From the IMG/VR virus record IMGVR_UViG_2061766007_001346, positions 32,001-96,000 of that record: DNA of 64,000 bases; one strand, written 5' to 3'. This DNA comes from a virus (lineage: Duplodnaviria; Caudoviricetes). Made by a program: the position numbers and the translations under genes. How positions within the stretch are numbered: position 1 is the stretch's first letter; the number at the start of each line of letters is the position of its first letter. Under the pieces are notes generated by a model. The model searched no databases. It was not told where the DNA came from and was given only the letters and a program-made list of their open reading frames with translations. Below, in pieces: positions 4,022 through 60,198 of the stretch.

Positions 4022-5902
4022 CTAAAAATGTTGTCCTATTCTACTTAATTCATCATAACGAGGGTTGGCCCTTGCCTCTTCTGTTGCTTGTAAAAGATAA
4101 TCATTTGCCATCACACGTTCTGGAACATTTCTGGTCTCTTGTTTGGAAATCGCCTCATCCATGGTAGAATTGAATCCATACCATGCAGAATCTTTTGCAT
4201 AAACAAATACAATTCCTTCCCAAAAATCTCCAGATTCTGATTCTGCGTATTTTCGATTGAGAGAATCTTTCTTCTTATCACCATACGCTTTATCATATCT
4301 AACATAGTTATTATAGGCGTCTTTAATCTTCTTTGCTTCAGACTTATCAACTTTTCTTAAGAATAATTTTTCATCCTTTGTTAACTTAATAGTATCGTCA
4401 CCAGCAAAAGCAGAAAATGCCAAGAATGGCCGTGTATCGCGAAGCGTGAATGATTTTCCATCTTCTGATGGAATAACATCTTGTGCAGATAGCTTTGGAT
4501 ATTTAGCAAGCATTGCGTTTCTTTCTGTCGGAGTAAGATTCCTCATATTACCAGAATCTTTAACATCCTTCATAAACGCATTAAATTCCCGTAATTTCTC
4601 AAAATCGGGACGAATGTGTCCATTATCGTCTTTTCATGGAAGATATACTTTTGAAGTTCCACTACCTCCATTATAGAAAATTGTCGGGCGTTCGGATTCG
4701 GTGACCGGATGGTCTCCAAAAGTTATATCTTGTGTATTAACACTAGACGATAAAGCGTGTCCGTCTTTACCGCTACTGAAGAACATTTTCTGAAGATTCA
4801 TTGGATCAAGTGGCTGCATATCCCAGTTTAACATCGGACCCCAGTCTTCACCCTGAGCAAGATATGTACCTTTTTCATGAATCTTAGATGCCGTAGGCGC
4901 AATTAAGAATTGCTCTCTAGTTCCTTTTCCTAATCCAAAACGATATTGATATGTGTTGTGAGTCTTCAAATCCTCATCGTCTCCACTGCCACCTCCACCA
5001 GCAGCCTTACTAGCAGAAGCTTCATAAGAGTATTTTTCTTCTCTATCAACCTGTGAGAAGATTATTTTACGTAAGTACTCTTGCGGGTCTGTTCCACTCA
5101 TTGCCGCACGAGCTCTTAATAAGTTCTGTGCATCTCTTGATAATTGGCTAAATAATAACGATGAGAAATCATATAAATCTGCCTTAGAGTACTTTGAAGA
5201 AATTTTATAAATATCTCCGTCAATAACGTCCCCGGCAAGTTCTTTTATTTTACTTCCTACTGCAAACTGATCCTTTGAAACATTTCCAAAATTACTAATA
5301 ATAGTATCAATTTCCTGTCGAATGTCTTTCTGACCAACAATATCTGATGTAACTGTATCCAAGATTTCATCACTGAATGCGAACTCAGGATTGCGCTGAC
5401 GCAAGAACATCAATTCTGAATTGGAAATCGGAGCGTATCTTTCATTCGAATAATCGTCAGGACTAACTTTGGTAATTTTTCCGTCCTCTCTGTCTCGTAC
5501 CCACATCTTACCATATGAATCCAATGCTACTTCAGAACCAGCGTCGTGTTTCTTAATTTCGGTTAAAGCGTTATCTCAATGTTCTTTATTAGCTTTTGCA
5601 ACACTAGCTAACTGCATTATTTGAAGCATACCAGGCATAGCAGAACGATAATCGCCATCAATCATGAGTTCCCGAGATTTTCTCTGGAATTGAATCAATT
5701 TATTATAAATCATCTGAATATCACTTGGAAGTAAATTTTGATCCTTCATTAAAGAAATCAATTCTTTATCCAGTGGATCGAGTTTTGCTTCAGAACTAGA
5801 AGCCTCAGATCCGGAACCTCTGGAACCTTGGCCTAATCATTGTTCTGGAATAAAGGGGGTGTATATTAACCCACCCCCTTGTTGATATACTTTTAATTTC
5901 AT
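4022..5902 (-). CDS. Putative cargo protein, 626 aa, N-terminal KVYQQGG motif
   Basis: ATG 5902 overlaps the upstream TAA; joins 5576-5761, 4634-5524 and 4022-4573 via TGA; ends TAG. Confidence 0.82.
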
Positions 5903-8900
5903 TATTTTAACGCTCTTAATAATAGTTTAATTGTATTATCGCTTAGTTTAGCTATAGCATGATGTGTAGCCTTATTATTGTCGATTCAGATTTGTTCCTC
6001 CGGCTCCTTAGTGTATCGGGTCGAACCTCTCAGATATCCACCTTTCTTATACACACCAGATGATGTACCTGTCATTGCACGAGGATAACGATAATTTAAT
6101 CCGTTTTGATAGAGCCAATCCCTAATAGCATTTGCAGATGATTTCTGCCAATTCTCAATGGTCTCTATATTTGCGGACCAAGTTTCGGGATATTTTCTAC
6201 GAATATAATCTTCAAAATCAACATATTTAGCTTTCTCATCAACACCCAACCCATTATATTCAGCTCTGGCACCAGGGAATAAAGTATCAAGTTTTCTATT
6301 GAGTATGTCAGATTGACGTTCAATCTCTTTTTGTTTTTCATAATTAAGTATAACATTTCTATCTTGCTTAATATTGTTCTGAATTTCAAGTCCGAGATTT
6401 TCAATAGATTGTCCCTTACGTTGTAGATACTCGAGTTCTGGATTATATAATGCAGAATTAATAGAAGCGTTTCTAGCACGATTCTGATTTGCTGTAGATA
6501 TCTGATTAGCGATATTCTGATTCATTATATTCAACGCTTCCTTCTTTGCTTCCCAATCGGCCTGAGAACGTTGTGTTGTAATGTTCTGCTCTCTATCGTA
6601 TAACTGAGCCTCTCTTTGATTAGCCATTGCATTATTTGCAATAACATCGGAAGTTACAGGTTTAATTCCAGCCATACGTTCAGATCGCACTTGTTGTAAT
6701 GCTCTATCTAAAGCAGGATTATCATTACGTGGTGTATTTAACTGAACCGGAAGTTCGTTAAATCGAGCTGCTTCGATCGCTTTCTTAGAGGTATCGCGAT
6801 ACTTTCTCTGTAATCCAGAATTGATAAGATATCTTACCAAGCTGATTGCAGGTATCAAGTTCTTCGTACTATCGGAAAGATCTTCTGGTATTCCACCACC
6901 ATCATCAACCTCAGTATCTGTGGCAGTACTTGTCGAACGTGGTAAGATACCACTATGATAAGTAGTTGCTGACGGATTAAATTTATCATCCAATTTCATT
7001 CCCACAGTCTTAGTTGGATCTACGGCCTGAAGTTTTGGTCTTGGCAGACCATCTTCTTCGACAGGAATTTCTTCGACATCTTTAGGACCATATGCACTAA
7101 GATCAGGAGCACTTGATTTAGCATTTAAATTCCAAGCTTCATTAAATATATCTTGAATACCAGAGAGATAGTTCTCTTTTGGTTCGACACCAGGATCATT
7201 ACCATATGGCGTATAGATGCCATTGATGTATGTTCCCCAGTCGATACCCGGACGATAGGCGATATTATTGATTTCGTCAGTACTTAGATTAGAAGGAAGT
7301 GCATAATCAGGAACTCCGTATTTTAGATTTAAACCACGCTGTCCTTTTAGTACGCCACCGACCTGTTTTTTATCTACTAGTTGTCGCAATACATTCACAA
7401 GATCGTCAAAACTTTGATTATTGTTAGTTTTTACTTTTACAACATTTTGTTTTGCGAGCGGAACCGATACTGTAGGAACCGACAGCGGTGTACCATAATC
7501 ACCAACGTTGTATCGTAATGTGGTTGCTTGACCTAAATCCTTATCTGTATCTGGAAGAAAATGAATTGTTTTACCAGAATCCTGAATATACTTTACAGTG
7601 GTCTTTTCAGGACTTTCTTTTTCTGTTTCCTGAGTTTGTTCTACATAGTTGTATGGGGCAGGATTTCTTACCACAGTCATTTTTGGATACTGACGAACGG
7701 TAGCATTTCCTTCCAAACCGGATTTGACCCACGTACCTCTCTTTTCTCTTTCTTCTGAAAGGAACGCTTCTAAAAGTTCATCTGGAGGAAGTTCGTCATA
7801 AGTAACGTCTTCGTACTGTCCATTTCCATAATCCCATCTAACTGTTCCTCCGCGTTGTGATTTTGGAACAAATTTTTGTTTAAAAGAGTCAACCTTAGAT
7901 TTAGAAATTGTACCGCCTTCTTTATAAGAGTCTGAAATATTTTGATGCCATTCAGCACGTGTAATTCCTAAACCTTGCAGAATTTTCTTGGCATAATCCT
8001 TATTAATTTTTCTAGTTTTCCCATCACTTCCAACAGCATATCACGTATCATTGATATCGCGCATAATACGTTGTGTTACATTATTAAATGGAAGGACAAC
8101 TTTATCTATTTCAGATAATCTTAATTTCCTTTGTGTTGATGGGACACTAACTCCACCCCAGTTATCTGATCAACTTGTTGCTCCAGTTCATTTGTCAACA
8201 AAAACATCTTCTGGATTTCATGTTCCTTCAATCATAGATGGCGCCGATTGACCAGAAGCATTAAGATTACTAAAGGCTCCGTTAAAAGCGGCCTCGTTGC
8301 CATTTAGTTGTAAATTACCGTCTTTATCTACAACTAAATAATAAGGACTCCTAAATCCCCATGGATTATTGCTTGCCTCGCCATTATTAAAATATTTGAA
8401 AACTCTATACCCATTTGGATTTTCAAATTGTTGCTCGGAAATACCTGCAGATAGGATACCATTATCTCTAAAAATATTATCCAAATCAACGCCTTTAATT
8501 TTAGTACCAGGAATCCAGTCAGAATAATTTTCGATACCGGGAATATTGAGTCTTTCTGATATCTTAGCATATCTTTCAGACTGCGGCATATTTTGTTTAT
8601 TTATACTCTCTACGTAATCCATAATGGAGTATAAATTTCTGTTTGTTTTAACTTCCTCTGGAGTATATTTGTCTCCATTTACATCTATCAAACCAAAGGT
8701 ATATTTTGGATCTAGACCCATTTTGGTGACCATATCTGGAGTAATAAGCGTAGGATTGTTAGGATTTGCGGACCGTACAGACGGCGCTGTAGGTGTATCG
8801 GCAACAGGAGTCTGTGTAGTAGCAGATGCATCAGTATTACCGTCTGTTGCTCGGCCACCAGTAGTTCCACCGGTAGTTCCACTGGTACTATCAGTACCTC

Positions 8901-9669
8901 CACCTGTGCTGCCAGATGCTGGAGGAGCGATGTTATATTTGATACCAAACATTTCAAGTAAGTCCTCTACATCGGCATCATATTTATAACCAGGTTTGCC
9001 CATTGCAGCCCACAGACTGCTAAAATACTTGTTGCCAGAAGCGTATTTATCAGTATCCTTATACTCTTCTGTTTCGGCAATTTTATCCAACCATGCAGAA
9101 ATTGCATCGGTATTATATGCACTATAATCGTATTCAGACGCATCCCCGGCCTTTAAATGAGTTATGAGGTCGGAAACGCGTTTCTGCGCATTGAAGTTAT
9201 CCTCTTTCGTAGGAGAAAGGACACTATTATTATAATCTAACCGAATAGTACTTTTTTCAACAGCCTTCTTAGGTGAAGACTGTCCCGTAGTCGCAGGACC
9301 CTTACGAAGCACGTTGCGAATTATATGCAATACCTGATTGGTAGCCTGTTGAGATCTGTAAACCTTATTATTTGTCGCAGCGTCTCACTTCGAAGATTTC
9401 CTATTTTTTAGTTTGTCCAAGTCTTTATTACTGACACCAGTATATACATCTAGACTTTGGACGTTTTCTTTTAAGTTGCCAGTATATCGTCCGGATTGGA
9501 TGACACTTGACAGATTGCCGACCTGGGCCCTGAGTGCTGGCTCCATATTATCTACCTGATCGTTTATATCACGTAGTTGATCCTCGGTAATGTAATATTC
9601 CTGGTCGTCAAATAATATTTTGTATTTAGAAGTTTTTCCACCTTCTTGTAGTTTTCTCACTTGGGACAT
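5902..9669 (-). CDS. Putative cargo/internal protein, 1255 aa, five GG motifs
   Basis: Joins 9385-9669, 8218-9330 and 5986-7716 in one frame via TGA; ends TAA 5902-5904; Thr/Gly/Ser low-complexity linker; Gln/Asn/Ala-rich helical C-terminal part. Confidence 0.82.
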
Positions 9670-9702
9670 AAGGCATTATTAATATTAAATTAACATTATA
9701 TC

Positions 9703-9737
9703 AAAAACAGGGGATTAGTATTTCTCCAACCCCCTGT
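9703..9737 (-). terminator. Intrinsic terminator after the 9759-10049 gene
   Basis: Minus strand ACAGGGGGTTGG...CTAATCCCCTGT stem with G-U pairs, followed by a T tract. Confidence 0.75.
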
Positions 9738-9758
9738 GTATCTGTCGTTGTGAGAATC

Positions 9759-10049
9759 CTACTTTACTTTCAGACCTCCACAAGCCTTCTTACAACCTTT
9801 CTTTAACTTACCGCCCTTTTGGAATACGGGTTGAGCTTCGGAACCTTGTTCTGACTGCAGGAGTTCCATAATGGCCTGAGCAAGTAACATTGCTGCATCT
9901 GGACCCATCTCTTGAATAATCTGTGCTGCCATTTGAGCGATTTGCTGCATTGCGGCCTCTTGTTCGCCACCCTGCATAGGAGCGGCCTGAGCTTCCGGAG
10001 CTGCTGCCATAGGAGCAGCGCCACCCTCTTGAAAACGTTTTATCTTCAT
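9759..10049 (-). CDS. Small Ala/Gln/Met-rich protein (96 aa) with three GG motifs; monocistronic; putative internal head protein
   Basis: Clean ORF with its own upstream promoter and downstream terminator; RFQEGG, VFQKGG, KKACGG. Confidence 0.85.
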   Translation of the reverse strand: MKIKRFQEGGAAPMAAAPEAQAAPMQGGEQEAAMQQIAQMAAQIIQEMGPDAAMLLAQAIMELLQSEQGSEAQPVFQKGGKLKKGCKKACGGLKVK

Positions 10050-10103
10050 TTGTATAAATTATTAATAATTAAACATTAATTTTCTTATAAGCATTTCACA
10101 GTG

Positions 10104-10134
10104 CGAATTTACAAAAAAAATAACGATTATCAAA
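10104..10134 (-). promoter_or_regulatory. Bacteroidota-type promoter (variant -7 box)
   Basis: Minus strand TTTG-N19-TAAATTCG, one mismatch to TAnnTTTG. Confidence 0.6.
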
Positions 10135-10167
10135 ATTTTTTCACAAAATAATTTCTTTGCCAGAAAT

Positions 10168-10198
10168 TTTGATTTTTCAAGAACCTTTACTATCTTTG
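10168..10198 (+). promoter_or_regulatory. Bacteroidota-type promoter, divergent
   Basis: TTTG (10168-71)-N19-TATCTTTG (10191-98), perfect consensus. Confidence 0.7.
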
Positions 10199-10201
10199 CA
10201 T

Positions 10202-10301
10202 TAGCAATTCAGAACAAAGAGTGTGAACGAACTTATAAGTTACTACATTAAAACAATTATCTGAATTCCTCATCCCTGACTGTTACAGTTGGGGAATTTT
10301 T
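10202..10301 (+). ncRNA. Candidate ~100-nt small RNA
   Basis: Lies between a perfect plus-strand promoter and a plus-oriented terminator hairpin (CCCTGACTG-TTA-CAGTTGGGG, then AATTTTT); no ATG-initiated ORF; AATTCAGA/TCTGAATT pairing. Confidence 0.45.
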
Positions 10302-10725
10302 ATATATACATCTCTGCTAAACTATCCATATCTTCTACTGATACTTCTTCTGCAGTTACATAATCGGATAAATCAATAGTTTTGCCAAAGTCTTGTTGGT
10401 TCACCCATTCCTTAGTAGCGAAAGCGGCTAAGTCTTCTAACTTGATAAATCCAGATGTATCTAAATCAATAAGACTCGATAGTTTAGATAGGATTTCTTC
10501 TTGGATATATTGTTCGAGCTCTCTACGAGTAATATATTCGCTAAGATTTGCTTTCCTGTTGATAGGAACTCATTCACCGTTTACATACTCGTAAAGGATG
10601 CCGTTTGGTTTGTGTCATAAATAGTTTTTAGGAGGTTCGTTATCGTCAAACATGATTTTGACAACGTGCTCGTGTCTATAGAATTTATGACCTTTTGGAT
10701 CTGCGTGTGTTACAATTTTTCCCAT
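10300..10725 (-). CDS. Hypothetical protein, 141 aa, fibre-like motifs (FATKEWV, DLSDYVT); absent from ORF track
   Basis: ATG 10725 to TAA 10300-02 with 2 internal TGA; fills the gap exactly. Confidence 0.75.
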
Positions 10726-10726
10726 A

Positions 10727-11365
10727 TTATGCTTCTGTATATTCAGGTTCTCTATTATCTTGGGCGGTCATCTCGTTAAAAACATATCTACCCAGTGCCT
10801 TATAATCCTTGTCTTCTTTCGATACATAGGCTTTCTTGGCCTTTCTGATTATAACAACGCTCGATTTTCTACTAAAGATGCGTTCTCCGCCTTGTAATTC
10901 TGCTTGTACATTACCATCAGACCCGTATACATATAAACGATTAACTCCTAATTCCGGATGTTCGTCTATTTCTTCTTCATCCTCCGGTTCTGCATTATTT
11001 ATTTCCGAAAACAAATCTGTCTTATCCCCCGGCTTTACGCCAGAGTTAACATTCAATTCAATCACGCAAGATATAAATTCGGAACTTTCTGTTATTAGTT
11101 CTTCTGAGTTTGGTTGCCCCTGTTTAACAGAAATCACAACGCCGTTTTGATTTACAAAAATGATATCAAGCGGAATTTCTGTATCTTTCATTCAGAAGGA
11201 TAATTCTGACTGAGGATCATCTGAATAATCAAATAACATACCTTCGTCGGGTTCCATTTCGGTAACTCCCATTAAACCAGTAGCTTTATCTTCTTCTGTT
11301 TCCGCAACCATCAAATGGAAAACCCTTTCTCCAATTTGAACATCAATTCATTTTCTATTTTCCAT
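10727..11365 (-). CDS. DUF192-family protein with extra C-terminal domain, 212 aa
   Basis: VAETEEDKATGLMG..EGMLFDY..SF(W=TGA)MKDTEIPLDIIF matches the DUF192 FWMKNT motif. Confidence 0.85.
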
Positions 11366-12464
11366 TCTCAACCTCCTCTGTTATCATTCCAACATTATCT
11401 TGTGTATTTTCTATAAGTTCTTCAGCAATTAATTTACCTGCAGCAATCATAGCTTCATCGGAACCGTCTTTACGTAACTCCTCTAATTGTTTGGTTACAT
11501 CTAATCTAAAGATGATTTCCGAATTTTCAATCTCTGCAACTTGTTCTCCGACCGTACCGCCCTCGGCAGCCATTACGGGAATGCCTTTCTTAGTGGCGTC
11601 TTCCAAGTCCGGATTCACATCTGCAAGATTGTTCTTACGTGCGTGTAGAGCACCTTCAGGGAGGATATTAGTGTCAATACCAATTGTTCCACCATTCTGA
11701 AGTTTTTGGGCCTCCTGTTTCTTTGCAAGAATGGCTCTAACTTCTTCGGCAGACATTAGTTTTATACCATTCTTTCCTACAGTAACACCCATATAATTCT
11801 GTCCGGCGTAACGCATAAGATTCTGATGGTTTAAATCCTGGTAATAATCAGATTGCTTACGCATCGTGTTAGTCTCATTAATCTGAGAAAGAATTCTATC
11901 TGTAGAACGAGCTTCGCCAAGATAATTATTGATTTTCTTTCTTCCGAAAAGAACTCGTTTATTTGCAAGATCCTCCCCAGCTCTTAAATCAGCAAGTGCT
12001 GCTCCATAACCAGACTGCATTTCTTCTGCTTCATCGGACAGTTTATAATTATTAGTTCTACTTCCCATCAAACCTCAAATCATTGAATTACCAGGAAGCA
12101 TGTTCATTAAGTTGTTAAATATAGCAGTTCCTCCAACACCAGCCCGTTTTGCAGAATTTTTATCAATATTGCTTAGATTGGTGCCGGTAGCGTTACCAAG
12201 TGCGTCCACAACACCTGTTGCAGCAGCAATGATTTGGCCATAACCAGGGATCATGGCCAAACCTTGCCGTATTGTACTTTGTGCCGCTTTCTGGTCGGCC
12301 GAAAAATCGTCACCGTATTTATTACCAATAGCAGAACCCATTCCGGATATTGCATCTCCAGCCATAGAACCTCAGCCGCCAAGTTTAAGTCCCTGACCGC
12401 CGCTACTATTTCCGCCGCCAGTATTACTTTTTCCCATGTTATTTAAATTAGTCAAAAAACTCAT
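11355..12464 (-). CDS. Putative cargo protein, 369 aa, Gly-rich/hydrophobic N-terminus, GG motifs
   Basis: ATG 12464; joins 12075-12365 and 11355-12071 via TGA; KLQNGG, MAAEGG, EGALHARK. Confidence 0.8.
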
Positions 12465-12466
12465 AT

Positions 12467-15400
12467 CTACACATTAATTAAAGTTTTAATAGCGGCAATA
12501 ATAGCCAAATCTTTACCAGAATATCTAATGCGAATCTTAGCCCATTTGTCTCTAATCCGCACTTCTTTCTTCTGCTGAGCTCCAGCAATATCCATTCGTA
12601 GAGGTTCTATTTGTGCGAATCACATTCCATTCTTATACTGAATATTTCCTATTCTACGACCGTATCTATAGATGTCTTTAAATATCTGAGACTTAACTAA
12701 CATCTTTTGATTTAGTCTTAAATCGTATTTATATGTTCAATCATCAGAACGATATGTATTATTATCGTGTGTGTTGGATGTTGTCTTAATATCGGTAATA
12801 TTATTATATTCAGCCCTTTCCTTATGTACAGCTGTAAGCGGTGTGTTGTCCCGTTTAAATTCATAGTCATCTCCCATTATAGAGATTTCCATTTCATCGG
12901 GCTGTACATTATTTGAAATAATCTGAAGATTATCGAATATCTTTCCAATACCGATGGGATTGGATACTACGAATTCGAACTCAAATCCATTTTCATTATC
13001 GTACCAGCTTGAAACATGTCCACCGTTAAAAGCAACATCATATTTATGGTCTCAAATATAATAGAGATTATCGTTAGAATCGTCCTGCTTTTTATTTAGT
13101 GAATAAAATTCATCGTCGACATTTTCGGAAACAATCGGACATCAGTCATATTTAGTAACCCAAAGATTCTGACGTTCGTTGAAACAGATAGAATAAACCC
13201 GCTGTCCAGAATATCAGGTAAACATCACATCGCCCTTCTTTGCATTATAATGCGTTCTAATATCTGAAGTTCCCATATCCACTGATAATGGCTGAAGATT
13301 GTCTTTTAAATAGGTCTCAACCTTCATATCAGAGATTGTTTCGAATCCATTCCTATCAGAATATCTCCAGACCTTATTAGCATCAACATCGACACCATAA
13401 ATACCAATTGGTGTTCTTAACACAGAGTGTTCATATTTAGAACCATAGTCCTGCGAAATTACTGTAATCTCGTCCGGTAAAACCCCGTATCCATATATAT
13501 GAATCATCTCTCCGGTTGTTGTTTGCATAAGTGCTTTTGGATTCACAGCAACTAATCCTAATCCATGTTCCATGACAATAAAGATATTCTGTCCAAGCGA
13601 TATCAATTTAGTTATTGCACCATATTGTTTATCATAATCTTTGTAAGATAGTCCTTGGAACGTTCTATATCCATTTGTATAAGCATCTGTCACATGTACA
13701 TTCGAGAACATAATTCTGTTTGAGAATTCAGAACGCGAATATGGAACATCCGGCATCAGATTATATCGTTTTCTACCCACGGTTGCAGAAAGACCGTCGT
13801 TTAAAAGTAGGGATTCTTCTATCTTATTACCGGTTGCGGTAGACATACTATTTAATGGATAGAATGATCGAGGTGACCCAAACATAGACATTTCGTCGGT
13901 ATGGAAATTATCCATACACCGTAAACCTAAATTATATGAGGACAAACACTTAAATGTTACCCAATAACCCAAATCTACCGTATTTACGTCAGATAAATTC
14001 ACGTTGGATCATGGATCTATCGGTTCGTTGTTAGAATTTGTAGTCGGATTCTCTATGGCCTGTAGTACTTTATATCATCCTTCTTCGTCTAAAATCTGAT
14101 CGGATACTGGAGCTGTCGAATCTACGAAATTGTTAAGTATACGCATTGTTATTGTATTTGTATAGCAATCGCCGCGATATACATCTGAATTATAAATCTC
14201 GTTTTCTCCATTCCGTATTGGATTTCTTTCGGATACACAATAATATTCGGAAGAGTCCTGTTTCCTGACTAAAAATAAATTGGAAAGATTTGTATTTGAT
14301 TCATCCAAACGAATTGAGTAAATTTTACCTTCTGCAATATCATTTGCAGCAATTCCGACATATGGTGTAAACTTACCACGAACGATATTTAAGTCGTTAT
14401 TTTCGTTTTCAGACTTTATATTATATATTGGAACACCATAATGTAAATCTTTATAGTAAGATTCTGTTGTATACTTAAATCGATTTACTTCTGCCGCATT
14501 TCCCGCTATATTACTAAATTCGTAATTATCGATGACTTTTATGTTAGTATTAGGAGCCACATATACACATTTGCGTGCTTTTTTAGTGGGATCAGATCCA
14601 GTATATATATAATTTTCGTGATCTACCTTTAAATAATTATCGTTATAATATAGATCTGTTTCCGATTCTTGTACTCCGAAAGCACAATTCACATTATATT
14701 CATCGACGATTTCAAATATAGAACCATCTAGCATTCCACTAATAGAAGAGTTTACGCACGGGTCCAAACTTAGCAAACCTCGTCCCTTTAAGTTAGCAGT
14801 ACTTTCATAGATATATCTATCACAATATTTGGCAAAACTTCTAATTAATGCGTTCTCTGTTTCAAATGCCTTTCGCATGTTAGCAGGCATACGATAGAAC
14901 TCACCCAATATATCGGATATTTCGCTTGGTTCTGTAAATAACGGGATGCGTCTGTTTTCTCCATGACGTTCTACAATAAGATCGGTTATATATTCTGGGT
15001 CATTAGATATAAAATATATATGTGTAGCATGTTCTAACGGAGAATTTCCAATCGGTAAGGTCATATTTTCCGGTTCTATTAGAAGATAGTCTCAGAAAAA
15101 CACAGCATCGTCTTGGCCTACCTTATCAACATTATCGACGAGCGCTACTTCTCCAGCTTTGTATTTAGGATCTTTTATATAAGCACTATACCATTCGTTA
15201 TAATTTGTATACATGTGTGTATAATATGTTCCTGCTGGAGCGTTTGAATCGCGTTGTTCACATACACCAAATGATGTCAGTTCAAATTCTTTTAGTGAAT
15301 CTGCAAGATAATAAAGCATCGGTTTTTTAGATTCAGAAATATTTCTCTTCAATGCTTCCAGTTTAAGTTTGGAGCTTACAGTAGTCGTCACACCATATGA

Positions 15401-17317
15401 AACAGCAACGGTAAACATCTCCGGTGTTATGAAAATACCAGCGACTGGTGCCACGAGCAGGCCGAGGGCGACCTTCCATCATGTGTTGTTATAGTCACCT
15501 TCAAGATCTTCTATCCGTTTGATTAGTTCTTGTTGTCTATCTTTATCCGTACGATCTAGAGATAGAAAACTTTCTATCATTCAGTCATTTCCGTTTCAAA
15601 TCATCGGAAGATTACTCTTTTCATCGATCCCGATGGTTAATCCTTGACAAATAGTTCTTGGTATTCGTTTTTGCCGTACTACAAACCATCCCGCTACATT
15701 GTTACTTTCCAATAAAGAAACATCGCTCGGCAATTCAAAATTAAAGTATAATGGGCGAACTTTGTTTGAACTCGTTATAATATCGGCTCTTGGTGTACGG
15801 AATACACCAAGATCGTTAATGTACTGTGTATAAGTACTTTGCGTAGTTATCTCAGAATTAACAGATGTAAATACGCCGCCAGTAACATTAAACACAGGTG
15901 TTGTAGAACCATCTTTTAACACATAAACAATGCCGAAACGATAAATCTCATCTGGCCAGTATCCCAGTTTCGAATAGATGTTGGCTGTACTATAATACTC
16001 AGTTCCAGATTTATAGTCAGATGTAACTTTTGATATACCTTGTTCTTCTCCAAGATCTTGTTTTATCGTTACAGTAAAGCCTTTAGTAAAATCTTTTAAC
16101 TGTTGATACAACTTGAACGTTTCCTCTTGCCCAACGTTTCCTAAGAATAACATATTAGAATGTTGTGCTTCCGCTCTTGCCCAGTCAATAGTATGATAAT
16201 CGACATTAAGTTCCTCAATATCTACTGGAGTTTGTTGTTCAAATCCAGTTAACCATACTGTTTGATAGGGGTCTACATTCTGCCGCTTTTCTTCTGCAGT
16301 TCGCATGTCTTTCAAATCAATTGGCTCCGAAAGCATACCACATTCCGTCATACGATATCCTTGTGTATCAGAATATTCTCTTGTAAAATAAATATAAATT
16401 TTAGAGTAAATGAGATTTAAACCTGTAATTTTAAGATTTATCATCTTATCTGTGCGTTCATCTAAGAGCGTACCAGATATCGTTGATGGAACCGCATCAT
16501 TTCCATTAAATATAGAAACAATTCCTGATTCTCCTACAATATCTGTCTGATTAAAATCTCCGTCTCCAAATTTAATATAGAATGTATAATTACCGCCCTT
16601 CCATTGTCCGCCGGACTGTACACCAAGTAGCCCAATATTGGTTAAGATGCCGCTTGTTCTGATTAATTCGGATTCTTTACCAATCTCGGAATCAGAATAT
16701 ATATTTGTAAGAACATCTTGTGCTCTATTTACGAACTTGTACTGATTGTTTGGCAATACACTAAATCCAGAATTGATTATTCTTGGCTTACAACCGTCGG
16801 CAATCAGAATGAGATTTACAGAACCGTCATACGAATCCTGGATTTCAATAGTAACTGGTGTTTCCGTTGTATATCCCAAATCGACATTAGTTAAAGCAGA
16901 GTGTCCTTCTAATACATGTAGCGCGTCGTATATTACAAATCCATTTTCGTCTTTAAACGAACCTTTGTACTCTTCATCGTATAGTGTATTATCTCACGAA
17001 CTAGGATATCGTGGAGCGGGAAATGTTCCAATTTCTGTTTTATTACCATTGACTGAAACAATATACAAAACACCGTTACGCTCCTTGATACCAATTGGAG
17101 TGTAACCGTTTGTTAAATGAACGTATGATATTGTCTCGTTATCGATATCACTAACAATCTTCTTATTGCCTCGGTCGTTTTGCAGACAAAACTCATTACC
17201 GTTGTATGTGATAAACGTTCCGTTTATGTTATCTGTGAGTATTGTATTTGGAGTTACAATCGGATGTAAATCGAGATTAAGTCCATCCTTGAATTCGTTA
17301 TTTGCGTTTTGTCTCAT
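12467..17317 (-). CDS. Tail stabilisation / muzzle protein (P22 gp10-like), 1616 aa
   Basis: Five track ORFs plus an unlisted C-terminal part in one frame via TGA; N-terminal F.DGLNLD..P and C-terminal RIRDKWAKIRIRYSG as in crAss-like tail stabilisation proteins; ends TAG. Confidence 0.8.
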
Positions 17318-17879: not shown

Positions 17880-18343
17880 TAGTAATACTGTTTTCCTGAA
17901 TTAATTTTCGAATAAAACCATTGCTTTAGATTACACGATATATATATTTTCTTTTCGTATATGCTTCGTCCACATATTCGTTGATATACTAGATAATAAG
18001 CTTTAAAATCGGTTTTAATGAAATCTGTTCCTATAAAAGCGCCGTTAGCCACGGCACGTTTTAATTCTTCTCCCTGAATGCATTTAACAAACATGTACGC
18101 TCTCTGTTTGGAAAATAATGGGAGTTCAAAGGTAACATTATTTTCGATTATATCCAAAATTACTAGATATATAAAGTAAGTAAATATTTGTCCGCACAAT
18201 TCGACAATAGTATCCGCACCGTAATATGTTGGTAATACTTTACGGATTCCTATTGCCTGTGCGTCCTTTAACTCAAATAGTTCTTTTGGAGTAAAACTAA
18301 AGTCGTTGTAAAAGTCTCAATTTCGTTCACCTCTAGGCTGCAT
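17879..18343 (-). CDS. Conserved phage protein, 154 aa (possible IHF-like gene by position)
   Basis: ATG 18343 in TAATG overlap; one TGA; joins 17879-18199. Confidence 0.7.
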
Positions 18344-19035
18344 TACTTTGTAGGTTTAAAAGAATGCCCATAAAATTTTCTATTCCACGAAGCTCTCGCA
18401 TCCAAAACAGCATCCATATCATTTTGAGACACATGTTCTGGTATTCTTGCAGCATTGCAAGCACGCAGCCAATCCTCTTTGACGGTCTGCGCAAATTTCA
18501 TAAGATTTGCATCTTGTTTTTTAATTGAATCTTTATAAATTGATGTATACGCAATAAATGCTGCAACAGCTCTAAGTTCCTTGTCATTTACGAGAGGCAT
18601 TCCCGTTTCTTCATCTGCAAAAATTCCATGATAGACGACCATTACAGCGGGATAATCATGAGTGAAATAAAGTGTTCCATTGCCCTCATCATATCTTATA
18701 AGCTTACCTTTTTGTAATAGTGGGTCGGTATTAAAGTGTCATCTATCGATATATTGTTCTACTCAAATTGATTCTGATCAATAATTATGTGAATCCGGAC
18801 CTATAAATTTAGCATCCGGAATAGGAATGTGTACCGATTCGATTACATCCGCATTGCACGGAAGTTCTAGTTTCTTATCCTCGACACGCCCAATATACTT
18901 ATATAATCGCGTGTGTTTGGTTCCTATTCTACCCCAAGCGTCTAATGCCAAATCTTCGAAAGAAGATTCATCTGGAGAAATGCCGTATAAGGTTTCACAA
19001 AGACCATAAGCAGCATTTAAATTAGTTAGTTCCAT
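18343..19035 (-). CDS. Putative tail tubular/ring protein, 230 aa
   Basis: 18778-19035 and 18343-18642 joined through three TGA; position upstream of the tail stabilisation gene. Confidence 0.65.
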
Positions 19036-19037
19036 AA

Positions 19038-19709
19038 TTATCGTGCGGTTTGGTCATTTCTATGTGGAGGTTGTAATGCACTTCTGTAGTAATATAATTT
19101 CTCTTTGGTGAGCCTAGTCTTTATTTCGGAACTAATACTTCCGAGATCTCCACCGCCACCATCACAATCACCATTACAGCCAATCTTTTCTAATTGTCTA
19201 GGATCTCTGAAAACACCAATCACCGAGATGTTCTTTACATAGGGCAGATTATAAATCCAACCATCATACATTCCGTTTTCATTTGGAGTGGTTTCTATAT
19301 ATACATATGGTTGATTGACGTTTCTTTTTTTGTATTTATGATATTTCACTTGCGTTGGCGAGAAATACACTTTATATTGTTGTTTTCTGTCGGCAGACCC
19401 AACTCAGGCTATAGCATCGCCGCCAATTCCCGATACTAATTGCGGAATTTCAAAATGCATTTCCGATTTTCCCACTTTCGTGCAACATTTGGTAGAATCT
19501 TTACAGTCCACCTCAATGCAGTTAATAGCGGTGAGCAAATCATTTTTGTGAAGCAACCCACGTCTCCACTTTTCGATAATAATGCTTTCTCTTAATGCTA
19601 CGACTTCGTCTTGTAATTGTTCTTCCGAAATAGTTACATTTTCGTGTAAACCAACAAGCCCAGATACAACATCATTAAGAATTGCATATGTTAATTGTTC
19701 TATAGTCAT
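19038..19709 (-). CDS. Putative tail ring protein, 223 aa
   Basis: Start at ATG 19709 (MTIEQL) just after a terminator; joins 19038-19370 via TGA; GVFRDPR motif. Confidence 0.65.
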
Positions 19710-23018: not shown

Positions 23019-24449
23019 TTAGAACCAAGGGTTCTGTCTCTTGGCGCTCATGAGCACCACAGACTTGTAAGGATTGAAGACTGCGATGGAACCAGTACCC
23101 CAAGCGATGAGTTTGGAACCAGCGACCGGGCTGGAAACCTCACCAGAGGATGTACCATTTAGACCACCAACACCAAGAATATGGTTCTCGATATAATCGG
23201 TACCCTTGAAGGTGTATTTGGCGATAGCCGGTTTGCCAGTCTTAGTATCCGGAGTAAGATCAACAAGTAAACCGTACTTGCGATCAGGGAATTCGACGTC
23301 GAGAGATCTGTCGAGTTTGAAACCAATCGTATTTCCACCGTAAGTATAGGTGTCATAAGTTGCACCAGCGGCGATATAACCATTGGAACCACGGCTCCAT
23401 AGGAAGTTACCATCAGTATGGCGATCCTTCAGGAAGAGATCGATAACGCTCTGTACATCGTCCCACATTAGAGTGTTGCAAAGGAATAGGAACTTATTGC
23501 CCGTACCCTTGTCACATTTTGCTACGAGAGCAGCGAGAGCTTTCTTCAGCCAAGCAACAGTTAGTCTGGAGAAGACAAACTTGGTAGCAAATCTTTCGAT
23601 CTGGCTAATAGCACCATCAGAGGTGATAAGTGGTCTGCCAGTTTCGGGCTCGTAAATCTTAGGATTACCAGCGGAATCAACATCACTCTTACCCCAAGCG
23701 AATTTATTCTCACGAACGAGCATGAAGTTGTCAAGAAGGACTTTCTTCACACCAGGTAGACGATACACAGGATCGTCGTCTTTGCCCTTACCAATCTGGA
23801 TGAATACATCCTCCATGGTAGCGTACTGTGCGGAATAATCGATATCGCAACGGTGAGTGGAAATGAAGCCTCTGAATTTCTCAGTGTTGGACTGATACTT
23901 GGTATAACCTTCCTCGTGCAGTTCGGGCATGTAGTTGGTCACGAATCTGGTGAGACGGCCAGCTGCATTAGCCACAAAAGCGTCAGGAATCTGAGACGAA
24001 TAGTCATCGTCAACAAGCTTACCAACTACGATGAAGCAGTTATCAGCAATTCTCTGAGGTCTGTTAAGAACAATCACATACTGACGAAGATCTTCGATGA
24101 TAAACGTATCATATTTCTGATAATAATTCTCAGGGAATCTGAAGATGATGTCGCTAGCATTGCAACCATTTCCTTCCATGGAAAGAATAGGAAGTCTCTT
24201 AATGCGGTTGACTTCGAGTTCCCACTCGTACATATAGTTGTTGATACGCTGCCAGGAGTTCTTGGAAACCTTTTCATTAGTAAAGGTGTTCATCAGGGCC
24301 TCGGTAAGATTCGTAAAGGTATACTGATCGTAAAGAGTCGCTACAAGGCCAATTCTTTCTGGACGAACGCCTAAGAATTTAGAGAAGTCTTCAAATGTTC
24401 TTGTAGTGTGCATCTCTGGACGCACAGTAGTAAAATTAGTAATTCTCAT
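23019..24449 (-). CDS. Major capsid protein, 476 aa
   Basis: Size, strong codon bias, followed by a terminator, preceded by an acidic scaffold-like gene; crAss-like MCP features (YEWELE, G.P..T.DG...QI). Confidence 0.85.
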   Translation of the reverse strand: MRITNFTTVRPEMHTTRTFEDFSKFLGVRPERIGLVATLYDQYTFTNLTEALMNTFTNEKVSKNSWQRINNYMYEWELEVNRIKRLPILSMEGNGCNASDIIFRFPENYYQKYDTFIIEDLRQYVIVLNRPQRIADNCFIVVGKLVDDDYSSQIPDAFVANAAGRLTRFVTNYMPELHEEGYTKYQSNTEKFRGFISTHRCDIDYSAQYATMEDVFIQIGKGKDDDPVYRLPGVKKVLLDNFMLVRENKFAWGKSDVDSAGNPKIYEPETGRPLITSDGAISQIERFATKFVFSRLTVAWLKKALAALVAKCDKGTGNKFLFLCNTLMWDDVQSVIDLFLKDRHTDGNFLWSRGSNGYIAAGATYDTYTYGGNTIGFKLDRSLDVEFPDRKYGLLVDLTPDTKTGKPAIAKYTFKGTDYIENHILGVGGLNGTSSGEVSSPVAGSKLIAWGTGSIAVFNPYKSVVLMSAKRQNPWF

Positions 24450-43951: not shown

Positions 43952-44315
43952 TACTCTTTTCTTTTAAATACATTCCTATTATAATAAACACGATCGTAAT
44001 CATTAGATATATTGCCAACATCGGTTTTCCGGTAATTGGCAGATTAAAATAATAATATATTGCGTTTAACAAATCTATCAGAACACAATATCACAATGGA
44101 AGTCTATGCCAACTGCAAAATCTCAATAACTTTGATATAGCAAAAATCACTATAAATGACATTATACTTAGACTGCATAGGCACGAAACAAAGGGAAATG
44201 TTATACCAAAACAAGATGCACCGGACATTATAAAATAACCAATTGCGATCACCATTGGTATATATTTGACAATGATTTTACAAAGTCTAAATTCTGTTCG
44301 CGATATTTCCTCCAT
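43902..44315 (-). CDS. Multi-pass membrane protein, ~137 aa
   Basis: About four hydrophobic segments; one TGA; TAA 43902-04. Confidence 0.7.
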
Positions 44316-44532
44316 TTCTATTTGCAACAGGTGTGTTTGTTCACGGAGTAAAACCCGCATAATAGGTGATACGAGGAATTCCGTATTTATTTCTGGGAAG
44401 TGCTTTTTGTCGAGAAGAAAGTCCCTCTATAGTATTTTTCTTATACATTGTACTAAGTTTTCTCAATTGTTCTATCAACGGAACAGAAGAACCCTTGTAC
44501 ATATATGCATTTCAATTTATCAAATCGTTCAT
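44287..44532 (-). CDS. Small basic protein, 81 aa, C-terminal ANRNGGNI motif; absent from ORF track
   Basis: First ATG after promoter 44558-89; two TGA; TAG 44287-89. Confidence 0.6.
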
Positions 44533-52205: not shown

Positions 52206-52788
52206 TGCAGCCACAGTTTTTATTATCAAGTAAATCATCACAGATTGAACCACAACTTAAAATTCCTTCGTAGATGTTATGTAATTGTTCAACTTTATCT
52301 TCTTCTGCGAGATGCTCCATTAACCAATTAGCGATGAAGAGAAAATCTCTTTGTGCTTTTAGTTCATCGTTTTTGCAACGCATTGAACCGCAGTTCTTTA
52401 ACATCTCTTGGAATACTTTCATTTGTAAATTTAAGAGACATTTCTTTAATTTACAATTACAGAATATTTCATCTGTATCAAGTTTTGCGTTATTAAATCC
52501 GACAACACCAGATTCAACAGCATCTATAAACTCTTTGACTGTATATGAAACAGAACCAATACGTAAGTTTCCATTCTGAAGTGAGATATCGTTTCCTTCA
52601 ATCATATACAACTTATAGATTCCATCTTTGGATAAGTCGTATTCAAAATCACCTGTTCATTGTACAAATTCCGAAACATCTTTTGTTTCTTCATTCAATA
52701 AAACTTGATACATATTCTGGTTGCCATTCGCCACATCTATAACGAGATGGCAACCATTCATGTATGCAGAAATATCAAATTTAGTCAT
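52198..52788 (-). CDS. Cys-rich structural protein downstream of portal, 196 aa
   Basis: ATG in TAATG overlap with the portal stop; one TGA; C-terminal CGC. Confidence 0.72.
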
Positions 52789-58115: not shown

Positions 58116-58486
58116 TATTTTAGATATTTTGAATATATAGCCCCATTACCTCTGGCAACATTTGTGAATATCTCCCGTTCATCAACAGGAAGTCCTTGTT
58201 CTCTCATTGACATGGCAATTTTGTCGGCCATTAGTTGTGTATCCGTTTTTCCACTCATATATCTATCTATATTAGACATCTGGCTTTTCGCTCTTTTACT
58301 TGCTCCAGATACACCTTCTTTAACGATTTTTATCTTACTTCCGTCAGGCAGAGTTTTTATAATAAATCCAGGAGCGGCTGCTAGACCTAAGCCTTCTGTA
58401 GCATCTTTAGGAATCATCCCATCGATTACTTTGCCCATTGCGGAATTTTTAAACTGATTAAAGCCGCTCTTTATTCGAAAAAATCG
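58115..58486 (-). CDS. -1-frame continuation of the 58471-60198 gene (or separate ORF from ATG 58438)
   Basis: Translation RIKSGFNQFKNSAMGKV continues an internal repeat begun in the 0 frame. Confidence 0.7.
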   Translation of the reverse strand, partial: RFFRIKSGFNQFKNSAMGKVIDGMIPKDATEGLGLAAAPGFIIKTLPDGSKIKIVKEGVSGASKRAKSQMSNIDRYMSGKTDTQLMADKIAMSMREQGLPVDEREIFTNVARGNGAIYSKYLK

Positions 58487-60198
58487 TTACTTCATTTATT
58501 TTTATAAAAATCAATTAGTCCGCCAGACTGTTTCTTTTCAGCGCTTTTGGAACCAGATTTATTTTCTTTTTTATCTTTTGTTTCAGATTCTGCCATTTTT
58601 GCTACAGCATACGCGGCTCCACCTAAAGCTGCTGTAATGCCACCACCAATAAGTCAATCTTCTAGATTTGCATGAGGCATTGTGATATTATTGAAATCAA
58701 TTCCACTATAATCCGTTTCTATGAAATTTGGTTGATTATACTCCGGCATTTCAAATTCCGGCCATTTGGTCTTATTCATATAATCTCCAGCATTTCTTAT
58801 CACATCGTCACCTTCCGTCTTAATGAAATTTCCTAGTTCGTCGAAGTATCCAAGAACTTTTACTTCATCGTCGAGTTTAGAAGCGGCTTTTCCTAATGAA
58901 GATATTTTGCCAACTGGTGCGGCAGCTCCTAGCATTCCAGACTCAGAATTAGGGTTTGGTATAAAAGCACCCCAAACTTTACCAGGAGCAGAATCTTTAA
59001 ACTTATTCCATCCAGAACGAATTCTATTTAAATCATTAGACCACTTGTTAGTATAGTAATCAAGTATACTTCCATCCTGTGCTTTTTCTACTTTGCCACC
59101 GTTTTCTTTAGATTTAGCTTTATTTTTTGTTTTAGCTTCGAGATTTTGTAAATCAGCAAGGTCTTTTTCTGAGAGTTTTGTACTACCAGTCGTTCCTACA
59201 TTTCAAGCTTTAAACTTTCCGAATGGAATAAAACCGTCTACTTGATTTGGATTAAAGAACATTATATCTGGACCGTTTCGATATGAATAAGAACCGTCAC
59301 GAAGTCTACTCCACGATACATCATTTCCATTAATATCTTTAAAATTTAATGCTTTAAATAAAGGATTATATGTAACTTTACTGGAATCCATCGGCGTTGT
59401 AGAAACAGGCTTCTGGTATGGAGTAACTCTTCCGAAAACATCGACATTGCCCCCATCCTGTTTGGACGAAACCCGTTGAATATCTGGACGCATTCTTTGC
59501 ATAATTGCTTCGCGGTCATAACTATCCAGAGGAGTAAGATGTTCGGAAGGAAGTTTCTGCATGATAATCGTATCTTTTTTAGGAGTTACGTTTACCCAAG
59601 TATCAGCAGAAGTACCATTAATACTGGCTTGTTCAAGATAATATTCGTTTCCGTTCTGTGTCGCATGACCAAATTTTCTATTCATAGCAGCACCTACAGT
59701 CGGAGTTCTCTTAGAATTAAAATATGCTTTCATATAAGCTAAGAATGGAACATCAAACTTACCACTAGATACACTGCGTTTTCCTATAACGCCGTTGGAG
59801 TTCTGATGTTTTTCAATCTTGTCTCCATTTTCCATTCCAGCAAGTTTTTCTTTTGGGCTACATCCGCAATCGGCCTTTCCACCTTTTCCATGCTTACAAA
59901 TAAAGTCGCGGAATTTTCCGCCGTCTCGCATAGAAGTAGGTTGCGCAGAAGCCGTTTGCGTAAATAAATTAACAATTAACTGCACACCTTTCTTTTTATC
60001 GGTTTGCATTACTTGAACCGCATCATGAAGCTGTCGCGATTCTTCAGGATTGGATTTTATCTCTTCAAATCTAGCCCTTACGTCTTCTGGATTTTGTCCT
60101 AACTGCTGAGCAATCGCGTTGATGAAATCTTCCTCAGCTTGTTGTTCAGCCATTGTGGTTCCACCAGCAGCATACTTATTTAAAGGATTTTCAAACAT
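58471..60198 (-). CDS. Modular GG-motif protein, 575 aa (694 aa with -1 frameshift); putative internal/cargo polyprotein
   Basis: 59203-60198 and 58654-58935 joined via TGA; KYAAGG, SMRDGG, HGKGG, SKQDGG, SKENGG, KAQDGS, KKQSGG; TAA 58471-73. Confidence 0.8.

What the first reader, a model, noticed from the sequence alone, without database searches (positions are those of the whole stretch)
5870..12464. Recurrent xxQ/KxGGx[ILV] motif tags the putative cargo proteins: candidate capsid-targeting or processing signal
Seen in sequence: the same short motif opens three consecutive, otherwise unrelated proteins (MKIKRFQEGG at 10049, MSQVRKLQEGG at 9669, MKLKVYQQGG at 5902). It recurs internally or near C-termini: SYKEGGTI, KSQRGGTV, KKQVGGVL and VYKKGGYL in 5902-9669; VFQKGGKL and KKACGG in 9759-10049; KLQNGGTI and MAAEGGTV in 11355-12464; ANRNGGNI in 44287-44532; and about 7 copies in 58471-60198. 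I did not see it in MCP, portal, TerL or the ring proteins. Copies are conserved as peptide, not DNA, and often sit in basic linkers between domains. Established: T4 internal proteins use a short capsid-targeting sequence removed by the prohead protease, and double-Gly is the recognition end for C39 leader peptidases and ubiquitin-like processing. Inference: this is a phage-encoded address or cleavage label that loads a variable set of effector modules into the head for ejection. No cognate protease is identifiable in the window.
Basis: partly seen in the sequence, partly recalled or inferred. Interest (0 to 1): 0.82.

Follow-up and report, generated by a model that had tools for sequence, protein, structure and literature searches.

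The report
Gly-Gly junction tag on crassvirus cargo
A short conserved peptide (aromatic, Gln/Lys, any residue, Gly-Gly, any residue, Ile/Leu/Val) really does cap and join the swappable modules of the proteins this 177-kb rumen crAss-like phage probably carries in its particle. I found no published description, and whether it is a docking handle or a protease cutting site is still open.

Summary
Read with TGA=Trp, three neighbouring, otherwise unrelated genes downstream of the muzzle gene start with M-K-x-K-x-[FYL]-Q-x-G-G. About 15 credible copies lie in five window proteins and about 7 more in a cell-wall-enzyme cluster outside the window. Strict patterns are 4- to 9-fold above shuffled proteins. 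In relatives the tag is the best-conserved part of these proteins, and homology blocks begin and end at tags. MCP, portal, TerL, ring proteins, muzzle and three giant downstream proteins lack it. The label idea is only partly supported. The T4 capsid-targeting, C39 double-glycine and adenain models each fail defining features. None of six protease families searched (nor the DUF4157 zincin-like domain) is found in the whole genome. AlphaFold leaves the invariant N-terminal tag disordered, as expected for a peptide read by a partner. In crAss001 the ordered portal-bound C1 domain starts at A-F-G-G (uncut there). Yet my re-analysis of published gel-band spectra finds no intact C1 between 58 and >300 kDa. 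I favour an uncut docking or hinge handle (about 0.42) over a cleavage site (about 0.30). Earlier notes of this scan report the same tag in at least 15 other crAss-like genomes. My literature searches found no description.

The parts
4022..5902 (-). 626-aa tagged protein; N-terminal tag at 5861-5893 (KVYQQGGGLIY)
   Evidence: In 120 listed homologues of 34-61% identity, the N-terminal 19 residues are nearly invariant in about 117. AlphaFold: residues 1-41 have pLDDT<50.
5902..9669 (-). 1255-aa modular tagged protein. Tags at 9625-9657 (N-terminal), 7900-7932, 7834-7866, 7342-7374 and 6025-6057
   Evidence: Homology blocks to relatives start and stop at tags.
9759..10049 (-). 96-aa two-tag mini-protein: tag 10008-10040, helical core, tag 9798-9830, basic Cys-bearing tail
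   Evidence: The family has 70 representatives that keep both tags.
11355..12464 (-). 369-aa protein directly downstream of the muzzle gene; tag at 11676-11708 (KLQNGGTIGI) and a weak copy at 11544-11576
   Evidence: The tag region has pLDDT<50 in AlphaFold.
58471..60198 (-). 575-aa modular tagged protein. Tags at 60148-60180 (N-terminal), 59905-59937, 59437-59469, 59083-59115 and 58507-58539
   Evidence: Relatives of 328-847 aa carry shuffled modules; 45% of block ends lie within 10 residues of a tag, against 14% at random.
12467..17317 (-). Muzzle protein gene (landmark, untagged)
   Evidence: PF25731, E=7e-26; its Gly-Gly contexts are not tag-like.
10727..11365 (-). DUF192 protein inside the cargo block (untagged)
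   Evidence: PF02643, E=1e-21.

Best explanation
The motif is a short, partner-read 'junction tag'. It is about 11-14 residues long: basic-x-[FYL]-[QK]-x-G-G-x-[ILV], often followed by K-[AGL]-Q-x-G. It caps the N-termini and joins the exchangeable modules of one class of virion cargo and ejection proteins of crAss-like phages: the small and mid-sized, probably envelope-directed ones, not the giant polymerase-type ones. Shown: it is under strong purifying selection as a peptide, it is disordered on its own, and it sits exactly where modules are swapped. Inferred: it stays uncut in the particle and works as a docking or hinge handle that folds on binding a common receptor inside the virion (portal wing, tail-barrel lumen or another cargo protein). 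This would load and order these proteins for ejection. Because each module brings its own handle, modules can be exchanged freely.
For: - Enrichment and clustering.
- Conservation: the N-terminal 19 residues of the 626-aa family are nearly invariant while the rest is 34-61% identical. Both tags are kept in 68 small proteins. The 575-aa family keeps YQQGG at the N-terminus in 15 of 19 members.
- Homology blocks end at tags.
- AlphaFold with a 99-sequence alignment leaves residues 1-41 of the 626-aa protein unstructured, with pLDDT 33-38. The tag region of the 369-aa protein behaves likewise. This is the behaviour of a motif that binds in trans.
- Conservation extends on both sides of Gly-Gly.
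- In crAss001 the cryo-EM-ordered, portal-bound part of cargo protein C1 is residues 425-552 (PMC10172136). By the sequence this stretch starts A-F-G-G-W, and Pfam PF25725 starts at residue 424. That copy is therefore ordered and continuous with its domain.
- None of six protease families (S77, S78, S49, C48, C5, C39), nor the DUF4157 zincin-like domain, is found in the 177-kb genome.
Against: - No partner has been identified.
- Several copies per protein are more than a loading signal needs.
- The giant presumptive cargo proteins lack the tag.
- My peptide-mass re-analysis of the published crAss001 gel bands finds portal, fibres, muzzle and gp47/49/50 clearly. C1 (90.8 kDa) is never above chance in any band from 58 to >300 kDa, which is what processing would give.
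- Separate parts of C1 lie in the tail and in the capsid, which is simpler if C1 is cut.
- A tagged 1051-aa protein carries two HExxH motifs.
Confidence: 0.42

Rival explanations
1. The tags are cleavage sites. The cargo proteins would be polyproteins or pro-proteins cut at or next to Gly-Gly by an unrecognised phage protease (for example the HExxH modules of the tagged 1051-aa protein) or by a host protease. Cutting could occur in the prohead or after ejection, releasing the modules, a 10-residue N-terminal leader and small basic peptides.
For: - The tags sit at module boundaries and at N-terminal positions 6-10.
- The mini-protein has a tag at each end and a basic tail.
- Intact C1 is not detected in crAss001 gel bands of 58 kDa and above, although the portal, with the same expected copy number, is found at z=5.5.
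- C1 segments lie in two compartments.
- Two HExxH motifs occur in a tagged protein.
Against: - The crAss001 C1 model starts at A-F-G-G-W, so the bond after that Gly-Gly is intact.
- Strong conservation continues for 5-9 residues after Gly-Gly.
- None of six tested protease families is present.
- The hydrophobic residue is at P5, not P4 as for adenain or C39 substrates.
- The gel evidence is negative only, and bands 11-13 (54, 35 and 15 kDa) were not readable.
Confidence: 0.3
2. The tag acts after ejection. It would be an envelope-, peptidoglycan- or membrane-interface-binding element, or a refolding nucleus, that holds each module in the periplasm as the unfolded chain leaves the tail.
For: - Tagged proteins include a lysozyme-LAS/M15 peptidase and glycine-rich membrane-like proteins. 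One relative carries PG_binding_1 directly after a tag.
- The giant proteins, presumed to act in the cytoplasm, are untagged.
Against: No similarity to any known cell-wall-binding motif was found. In crAss001 one tag is ordered on the portal inside the capsid.
Confidence: 0.12
3. The tag is a passive flexible hinge: Gly-Gly linkers that merely separate modules so that they can unfold one by one, with no specific recognition.
For: Tags lie between modules and in regions of low predicted order.
Against: A passive linker would not keep an aromatic residue at P5, Gln/Lys at P4 and Ile/Leu/Val at P2'. It would not keep 19 invariant residues at an N-terminus across proteins of 34-61% identity. The true linkers next to the tags (Ser/Gly-rich or Pro/Ala-rich) vary freely.
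Confidence: 0.1
4. The pattern is a chance or composition effect of glycine- and lysine-rich proteins.
For: The pattern was defined after looking at the data, and some listed copies are weak.
Against: No shuffle in 2000 reaches the observed counts. The tag is conserved in hundreds of homologues in five unrelated families.
Confidence: 0.02

Closest known systems
Cargo proteins C1 (gp45, PF25725) and C2 (gp46, PF25712) of Bacteroides phage crAss001 (Bayfield et al. 2023, PMC10172136; PDB 7QOG and related entries)
   Same: - The genes lie directly downstream of the muzzle gene.
- gp45 carries related tags (F-x-x-G-G or A-[FY]-G-G) at residues 20, 209, 263, 332, 391, 427 and 562.
- These tags flank the two cryo-EM-resolved segments, 214-245 and 425-552.
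- A 54-residue module of the 418-aa protein of this genome is 70% identical to gp45 residues 370-423, E=3e-20.
   Different: - No PF25725 or PF25712 match anywhere in this genome.
- No detectable similarity between the 369-aa protein and gp45.
- The paper does not describe the tag: 'protease', 'cleav' and 'scaffold' have no occurrence in its text.
T4 capsid-targeting sequence of the internal proteins, removed by the prohead protease gp21 (my own knowledge)
   Same: A short N-terminal peptide of about 10 residues on otherwise unrelated packaged proteins.
   Different: Most copies here are internal. There is no L/I-x-E site and no S77 protease. Conservation continues past the putative cut.
Gly-Gly-X maturation sites of adenovirus (adenain, C5) and ASFV and poxvirus core proteins, cut by clan CE proteases (my own knowledge)
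   Same: Gly-Gly preceded by a hydrophobic residue; found on core or cargo proteins and small basic proteins inside a capsid.
   Different: The hydrophobic residue is at P5, not P4. P2' is conserved. No C5 or C48 peptidase is present.
Double-glycine leaders cut by C39 peptidase domains (my own knowledge)
   Same: An N-terminal leader ending in Gly-Gly.
   Different: The leader here is 9-10 residues and basic, without the hydrophobic pattern at -4/-7/-12/-15. No C39 domain or ABC exporter is present.
Polyvalent proteins of phages and conjugative elements (Iyer et al. 2017; recalled, and named in earlier scan note e1-5853221; not read here)
   Same: Strings of exchangeable enzymatic modules thought to be delivered together with the DNA.
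   Different: As far as I could check, no conserved junction peptide is described for them.

Membership tests
crAss cargo protein 1 (PF25725 crAss_CARG1) | Sequence match to the portal-binding domain | tested here: not met
   No hit in the window proteins at E<=10 and none in the six-frame search of the whole genome.
crAss cargo protein 1 (PF25725 crAss_CARG1) | Gene directly downstream of the muzzle gene; glycine-rich, membrane-like N-terminal part | tested here: met
   The 369-aa gene follows the muzzle gene. Its Gly-rich N-terminus gives only a weak hhalign match to gp45 residues 138-161.
crAss cargo protein 2 (PF25712) | Sequence match | tested here: not met
T4-type capsid-targeting sequence | N-terminal position on packaged proteins | tested here: inconclusive
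   Five of about 22 copies are N-terminal (626-, 1255-, 96-, 575- and 745-aa proteins). Packaging itself was not tested.
T4-type capsid-targeting sequence | Prohead protease (S77 or S78) and its L/I-x-E cleavage motif | tested here: not met
   No S77 or S78 match in the genome; the tags have no L-x-E.
Double-glycine leader / C39 | C39 peptidase present; leader with hydrophobic residues at -4, -7, -12 | tested here: not met
   No C39 match; P4 is Gln/Lys.
Adenain-type (M/I/L)-X-G-G|X sites | Hydrophobic P4 and a clan CE protease (C5 or C48) | tested here: not met
   The aromatic residue is at P5; no C5 or C48 match.
Adenain-type (M/I/L)-X-G-G|X sites | Cleavage after Gly-Gly in virions | not testable with these tools
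   Indirect evidence only. The crAss001 C1 model begins A-F-G-G-W, so that site is uncut. Intact C1 is not seen in gel bands of 58 kDa and above.
Short linear motif read in trans | Conserved short peptide in a disordered context, next to variable linkers | tested here: met

The most novel reading that the evidence does not exclude
Crassvirales may run a cargo-maturation system that has not been recognised. The Gly-Gly tags would be cut by an unidentified protease, turning modular pro-proteins into separate envelope-acting effectors, an acidic core peptide and small basic peptides. That would be a phage counterpart of adenovirus and ASFV core processing. It would also explain why parts of C1 sit separately in tail and capsid, and why intact C1 is missing from crAss001 gels. 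A more remote variant: the Gln-type N-terminal tags and Lys-type internal tags pair or cross-link to chain cargo proteins head to tail.
Probability: 0.3. Interest if true: 0.85.

Novelty: new variant of a known kind. Interest (0 to 1): 0.6.

Why it matters
Crassviruses are the most abundant phages of the human and animal gut, and how they load and eject several megadaltons of protein cargo is unknown. A single peptide that marks every joint and end of one class of cargo proteins, from rumen to human-gut lineages, gives a concrete handle for experiments:
- It predicts which proteins are carried in the particle.
- It explains how the modules are exchanged.
- It can be tested directly in crAss001 by terminomics, tag-peptide pull-downs and reporter fusions.
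- If the tag is a cutting site, it would reveal a new phage maturation protease.
- If the tag is a docking handle, it could be used to load foreign proteins into crassvirus particles.

Tried and rejected
Only four IMG/VR loci were obtained.
- tblastn of the 1255-aa and 626-aa proteins against INPHARED phages gave no match.
- PHROGs and Pfam gave nothing for the tagged proteins.
- The idea that the C-terminal part of the 369-aa protein is the C1 portal-binding domain was rejected: no match by BLASTP, hhalign, PDB sequence search or Pfam. Its AlphaFold model was too poor there to search.
- Foldseek of the 626-aa model against the PDB gave no match.
- The giants could not be confirmed as virion RNA polymerase. 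There was no BLAST hit to gp47/49/50, no D-x-D-G-D motif and no family match except PD-(D/E)XK in the 1518-aa protein. Their cargo status rests on position only.
- The gel-band re-analysis of crAss001 is limited to bands 1-10. The three low bands, where C1 fragments would be, were cut from the stored file.
- The supplement of the 2023 paper holds no peptide lists.
- Literature searches for a description of the tag found none.
Full report
**Setting**
- The window is bases 32001-96000 of a single 177,170-bp IMG/VR virus record that CheckV rates complete.
- Reading TGA as Trp raises coding density from 74% to 92-96%.
- Landmarks on the minus strand:
  - TerL, 55280-57541, and portal, 52788-55013
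  - major capsid protein, 23019-24449, and ring proteins 2 and 1, 19038-19709 and 18343-19035
  - muzzle protein, 12467-17317 (PF25731)
- Downstream of the muzzle gene follow, in order:
  - a 369-aa protein
  - a DUF192 protein
  - a 96-aa protein
  - a 1255-aa protein
  - a 626-aa protein
  - three giants of 3197, 3471 and 1518 aa
- In crAss001 this position holds cargo proteins C1 and C2 and the polymerase-associated gp47, gp49 and gp50.

**Observation**
- The proteins are otherwise unrelated.
- Against 2000 within-protein shuffles of all 187 proteins:
  - [QK]xGGx[ILVM] occurs 18 times against 4.9 expected.
  - [FYL][QK]xGGx[ILV] occurs 7 times against 0.8.
  - Neither count was reached by any shuffle.
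  - An N-terminal [QK]xGG occurs in 4 proteins against 0.5 expected.
- A broader tag pattern is about 20-fold denser in nine proteins (10% of residues) than in the rest. That set was defined by the motif, so the figure is descriptive only.
- The copies share no DNA similarity.
One of them lies in a doubtful overlapping ORF.

**Extent beyond the window**
- A second cluster at genome 96.5-108.5 kb (outside the window) holds more tagged proteins:
  - A 423-aa protein has a phage-lysozyme domain (Pfam). Its C-terminal half shows an LAS/M15-type H-x6-D ... H-x-H signature, read from the sequence. A tag (F-Y-A-N-G-G) lies between the two.
  - A 745-aa protein starts M-K-Y-K-F-K-D-G-G.
  - A 1051-aa protein has two HExxH motifs and a tag between them.
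  - A 418-aa protein carries three copies.
- The last 54 residues before the final tag of the 418-aa protein are 70% identical to crAss001 gp45 residues 370-423, E=3e-20. This is the only detectable sequence link between the cargo sets of the two phages.

**Conservation**
- 626-aa family: the 120 listed homologues (of 138 found) are 34-61% identical overall, yet about 117 start with M-K-L-K-x-Y-Q-Q-G-G-G-L-I-Y-T-P-F-I-P. A freely varying Ser/Gly linker follows.
- 96-aa family: it has 70 representatives at the 50% clustering level.
  - Of the 68 short ones, 67 have an N-terminal x-x-x-G-G, and Gln is at P4 in 62.
  - 46 have a strict C-terminal tag, with Lys or Arg at P4 in 43.
  - The tags flank Pro/Ala-rich spacers, a helical core and a basic tail.
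- 575-aa family: members begin M-F-K-N-P-L-K-Y-Q-Q-G-G. They range from 328 to 847 aa and carry different numbers of modules, each preceded by x-N-G-G-K-V-E-K-A-Q.
- Four IMG/VR relatives keep the same gene order and the same tags.
- N-terminal tags are Gln-type and internal or C-terminal ones mostly Lys/Arg-type. In this window several internal copies also have Gln.

**Junction role**
- BLAST blocks between the 1255-aa protein and its relatives start at the Gly-Gly of a tag (771 aligns with 1248 in L003).
- One relative has an extra module inserted between two tags.
- Across all pairs, internal block ends lie within 10 residues of a tag as follows:
  - 45% against 14% at random in the 575-aa family
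  - 17% against 6% in the 1255-aa family
- The block ends are not independent, so the p-values overstate the case.
- The tag therefore marks the seams at which modules are exchanged. Because the DNA is not conserved, the seam is kept by selection on the peptide.

**What the tag is not**
- It is absent from the shell and tail proteins and from the three giants, so it is not a universal head-loading label.
- I could not confirm that the giants are the virion polymerase.
- The genome has no match to peptidase families S77, S78, S49, C48, C5 or C39, nor to DUF4157. It has no match to crAss_CARG1 or crAss_CARGO2 either.

**Cut or uncut**
- For an uncut, partner-bound handle:
  1. AlphaFold with a 99-sequence alignment leaves residues 1-41 of the 626-aa protein without structure, at pLDDT 33-38, although this is its best-conserved stretch.
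  2. The tag of the 369-aa protein behaves the same way.
  3. Conservation runs on both sides of Gly-Gly.
  4. In crAss001, gp45 carries related tags at residues 20, 209, 263, 332, 391, 427 and 562.
  5. The portal-bound segment seen by cryo-EM, residues 425-552, begins A-F-G-G-W, and Pfam's domain model begins at residue 424. That Gly-Gly bond is therefore intact and ordered.
- For cleavage:
  1. The position and form of the tags fit a processing site.
  2. The two-tag mini-protein ends in a basic tail.
  3. I re-analysed the published crAss001 gel (source data of PMC6235969) by peptide-mass fingerprinting of bands 1-10.
     - It identifies the muzzle, gp47 plus gp50, gp49, the portal (z=5.5), and gp26, gp22, gp25 and gp23 at the expected sizes.
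     - gp45 (90.8 kDa) never exceeds chance (z<=0.3) in any band from 58 to >300 kDa.
     - This is negative evidence. Ion suppression by co-migrating fibre proteins is possible. The three low bands were not available.
- I therefore keep both readings open. I put the uncut handle at about 0.42 and cleavage at about 0.30.

**Known or new**
- The papers I could search do not describe the tag.
- Earlier notes of this scan report the same kind of tag in at least 15 other crAss-like genomes, with the same open question. I treated these as leads only.
  - the Gln-type and Lys-type split
  - the large two-tag mini-protein family
  - the disorder prediction for an invariant tag
  - the whole-genome protease search
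  - the gp45 370-423 module shared across families
  - the gel-band re-analysis

Noticed in passing
L001:4108-5364 (-), genome 100108-101364, outside the window: The C-terminal module of a 418-aa protein (K-G-K-F-T-x-Y-C-G-G-K-V-T ... R-K-R-A-T-F-A-x-N-A-R-x-W) is 70% identical over 54 residues to crAss001 gp45 residues 370-423. It is flanked by tags in both phages. It may be the most conserved cargo element between distant crassviruses. Its function is unknown, and the stretch is unresolved in the cryo-EM maps.
   Followed up: partly
protein P0290 (homologue of window 9759-10049): One database member joins the mini-protein core and its C-terminal tag to the C-terminal half of ribosomal protein L2. 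The join lies at K-G-G-K-L-V-R-T-A-G, which resembles L2's own G-K-G-G-Q-L-x-R-S-A-G hairpin. It is probably an assembly chimera at a micro-homology, but the resemblance of the tag to that L2 turn is curious.
   Followed up: no
L001:9308-12463 (-) and L001:7032-9269 (+): The 1051-aa double-HExxH protein starts M-N-Y-K-T-D-N-K-I-I-K-L-Q-R-A. This parallels the N-terminal tag of the 745-aa protein (M-K-Y-K-F-K-D-G-G-V-V-K-L-Q-N-A), with Gly-Gly replaced by Asn-Lys. The Gly-Gly can therefore be lost while the flanks stay.
   Followed up: no
window 10300-10722 (-): An ORF between the DUF192 gene and the 96-aa gene was dropped by my greedy gene call because its long form (175 aa) overlaps DUF192. 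It is probably a real, untagged gene of about 140 aa starting at an internal Met.
   Followed up: no
window 10727-11365 (-): A DUF192 (COG1430) protein with an acidic C-terminal extension sits inside the cargo block. Relatives have other genes at this place (L005: 340 and 524 aa).
   Followed up: no
crAss001 gel data (PMC6235969, source file for Fig. 3a): The two top bands (>300 kDa) are the muzzle protein gp44 (z=5-7), which also appears at about 150 kDa. Part of it therefore runs as SDS-resistant multimers even on a reducing gel.
   Followed up: partly
window 58471-60198 (-), residues 93-115: The 575-aa family keeps a Cys-rich element (G-G-K-I-x-D-F-I-C-K-H-x-x-G-G-K-x-x-C-G-C) right after the second tag. 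It may be a small metal-binding module.
   Followed up: no
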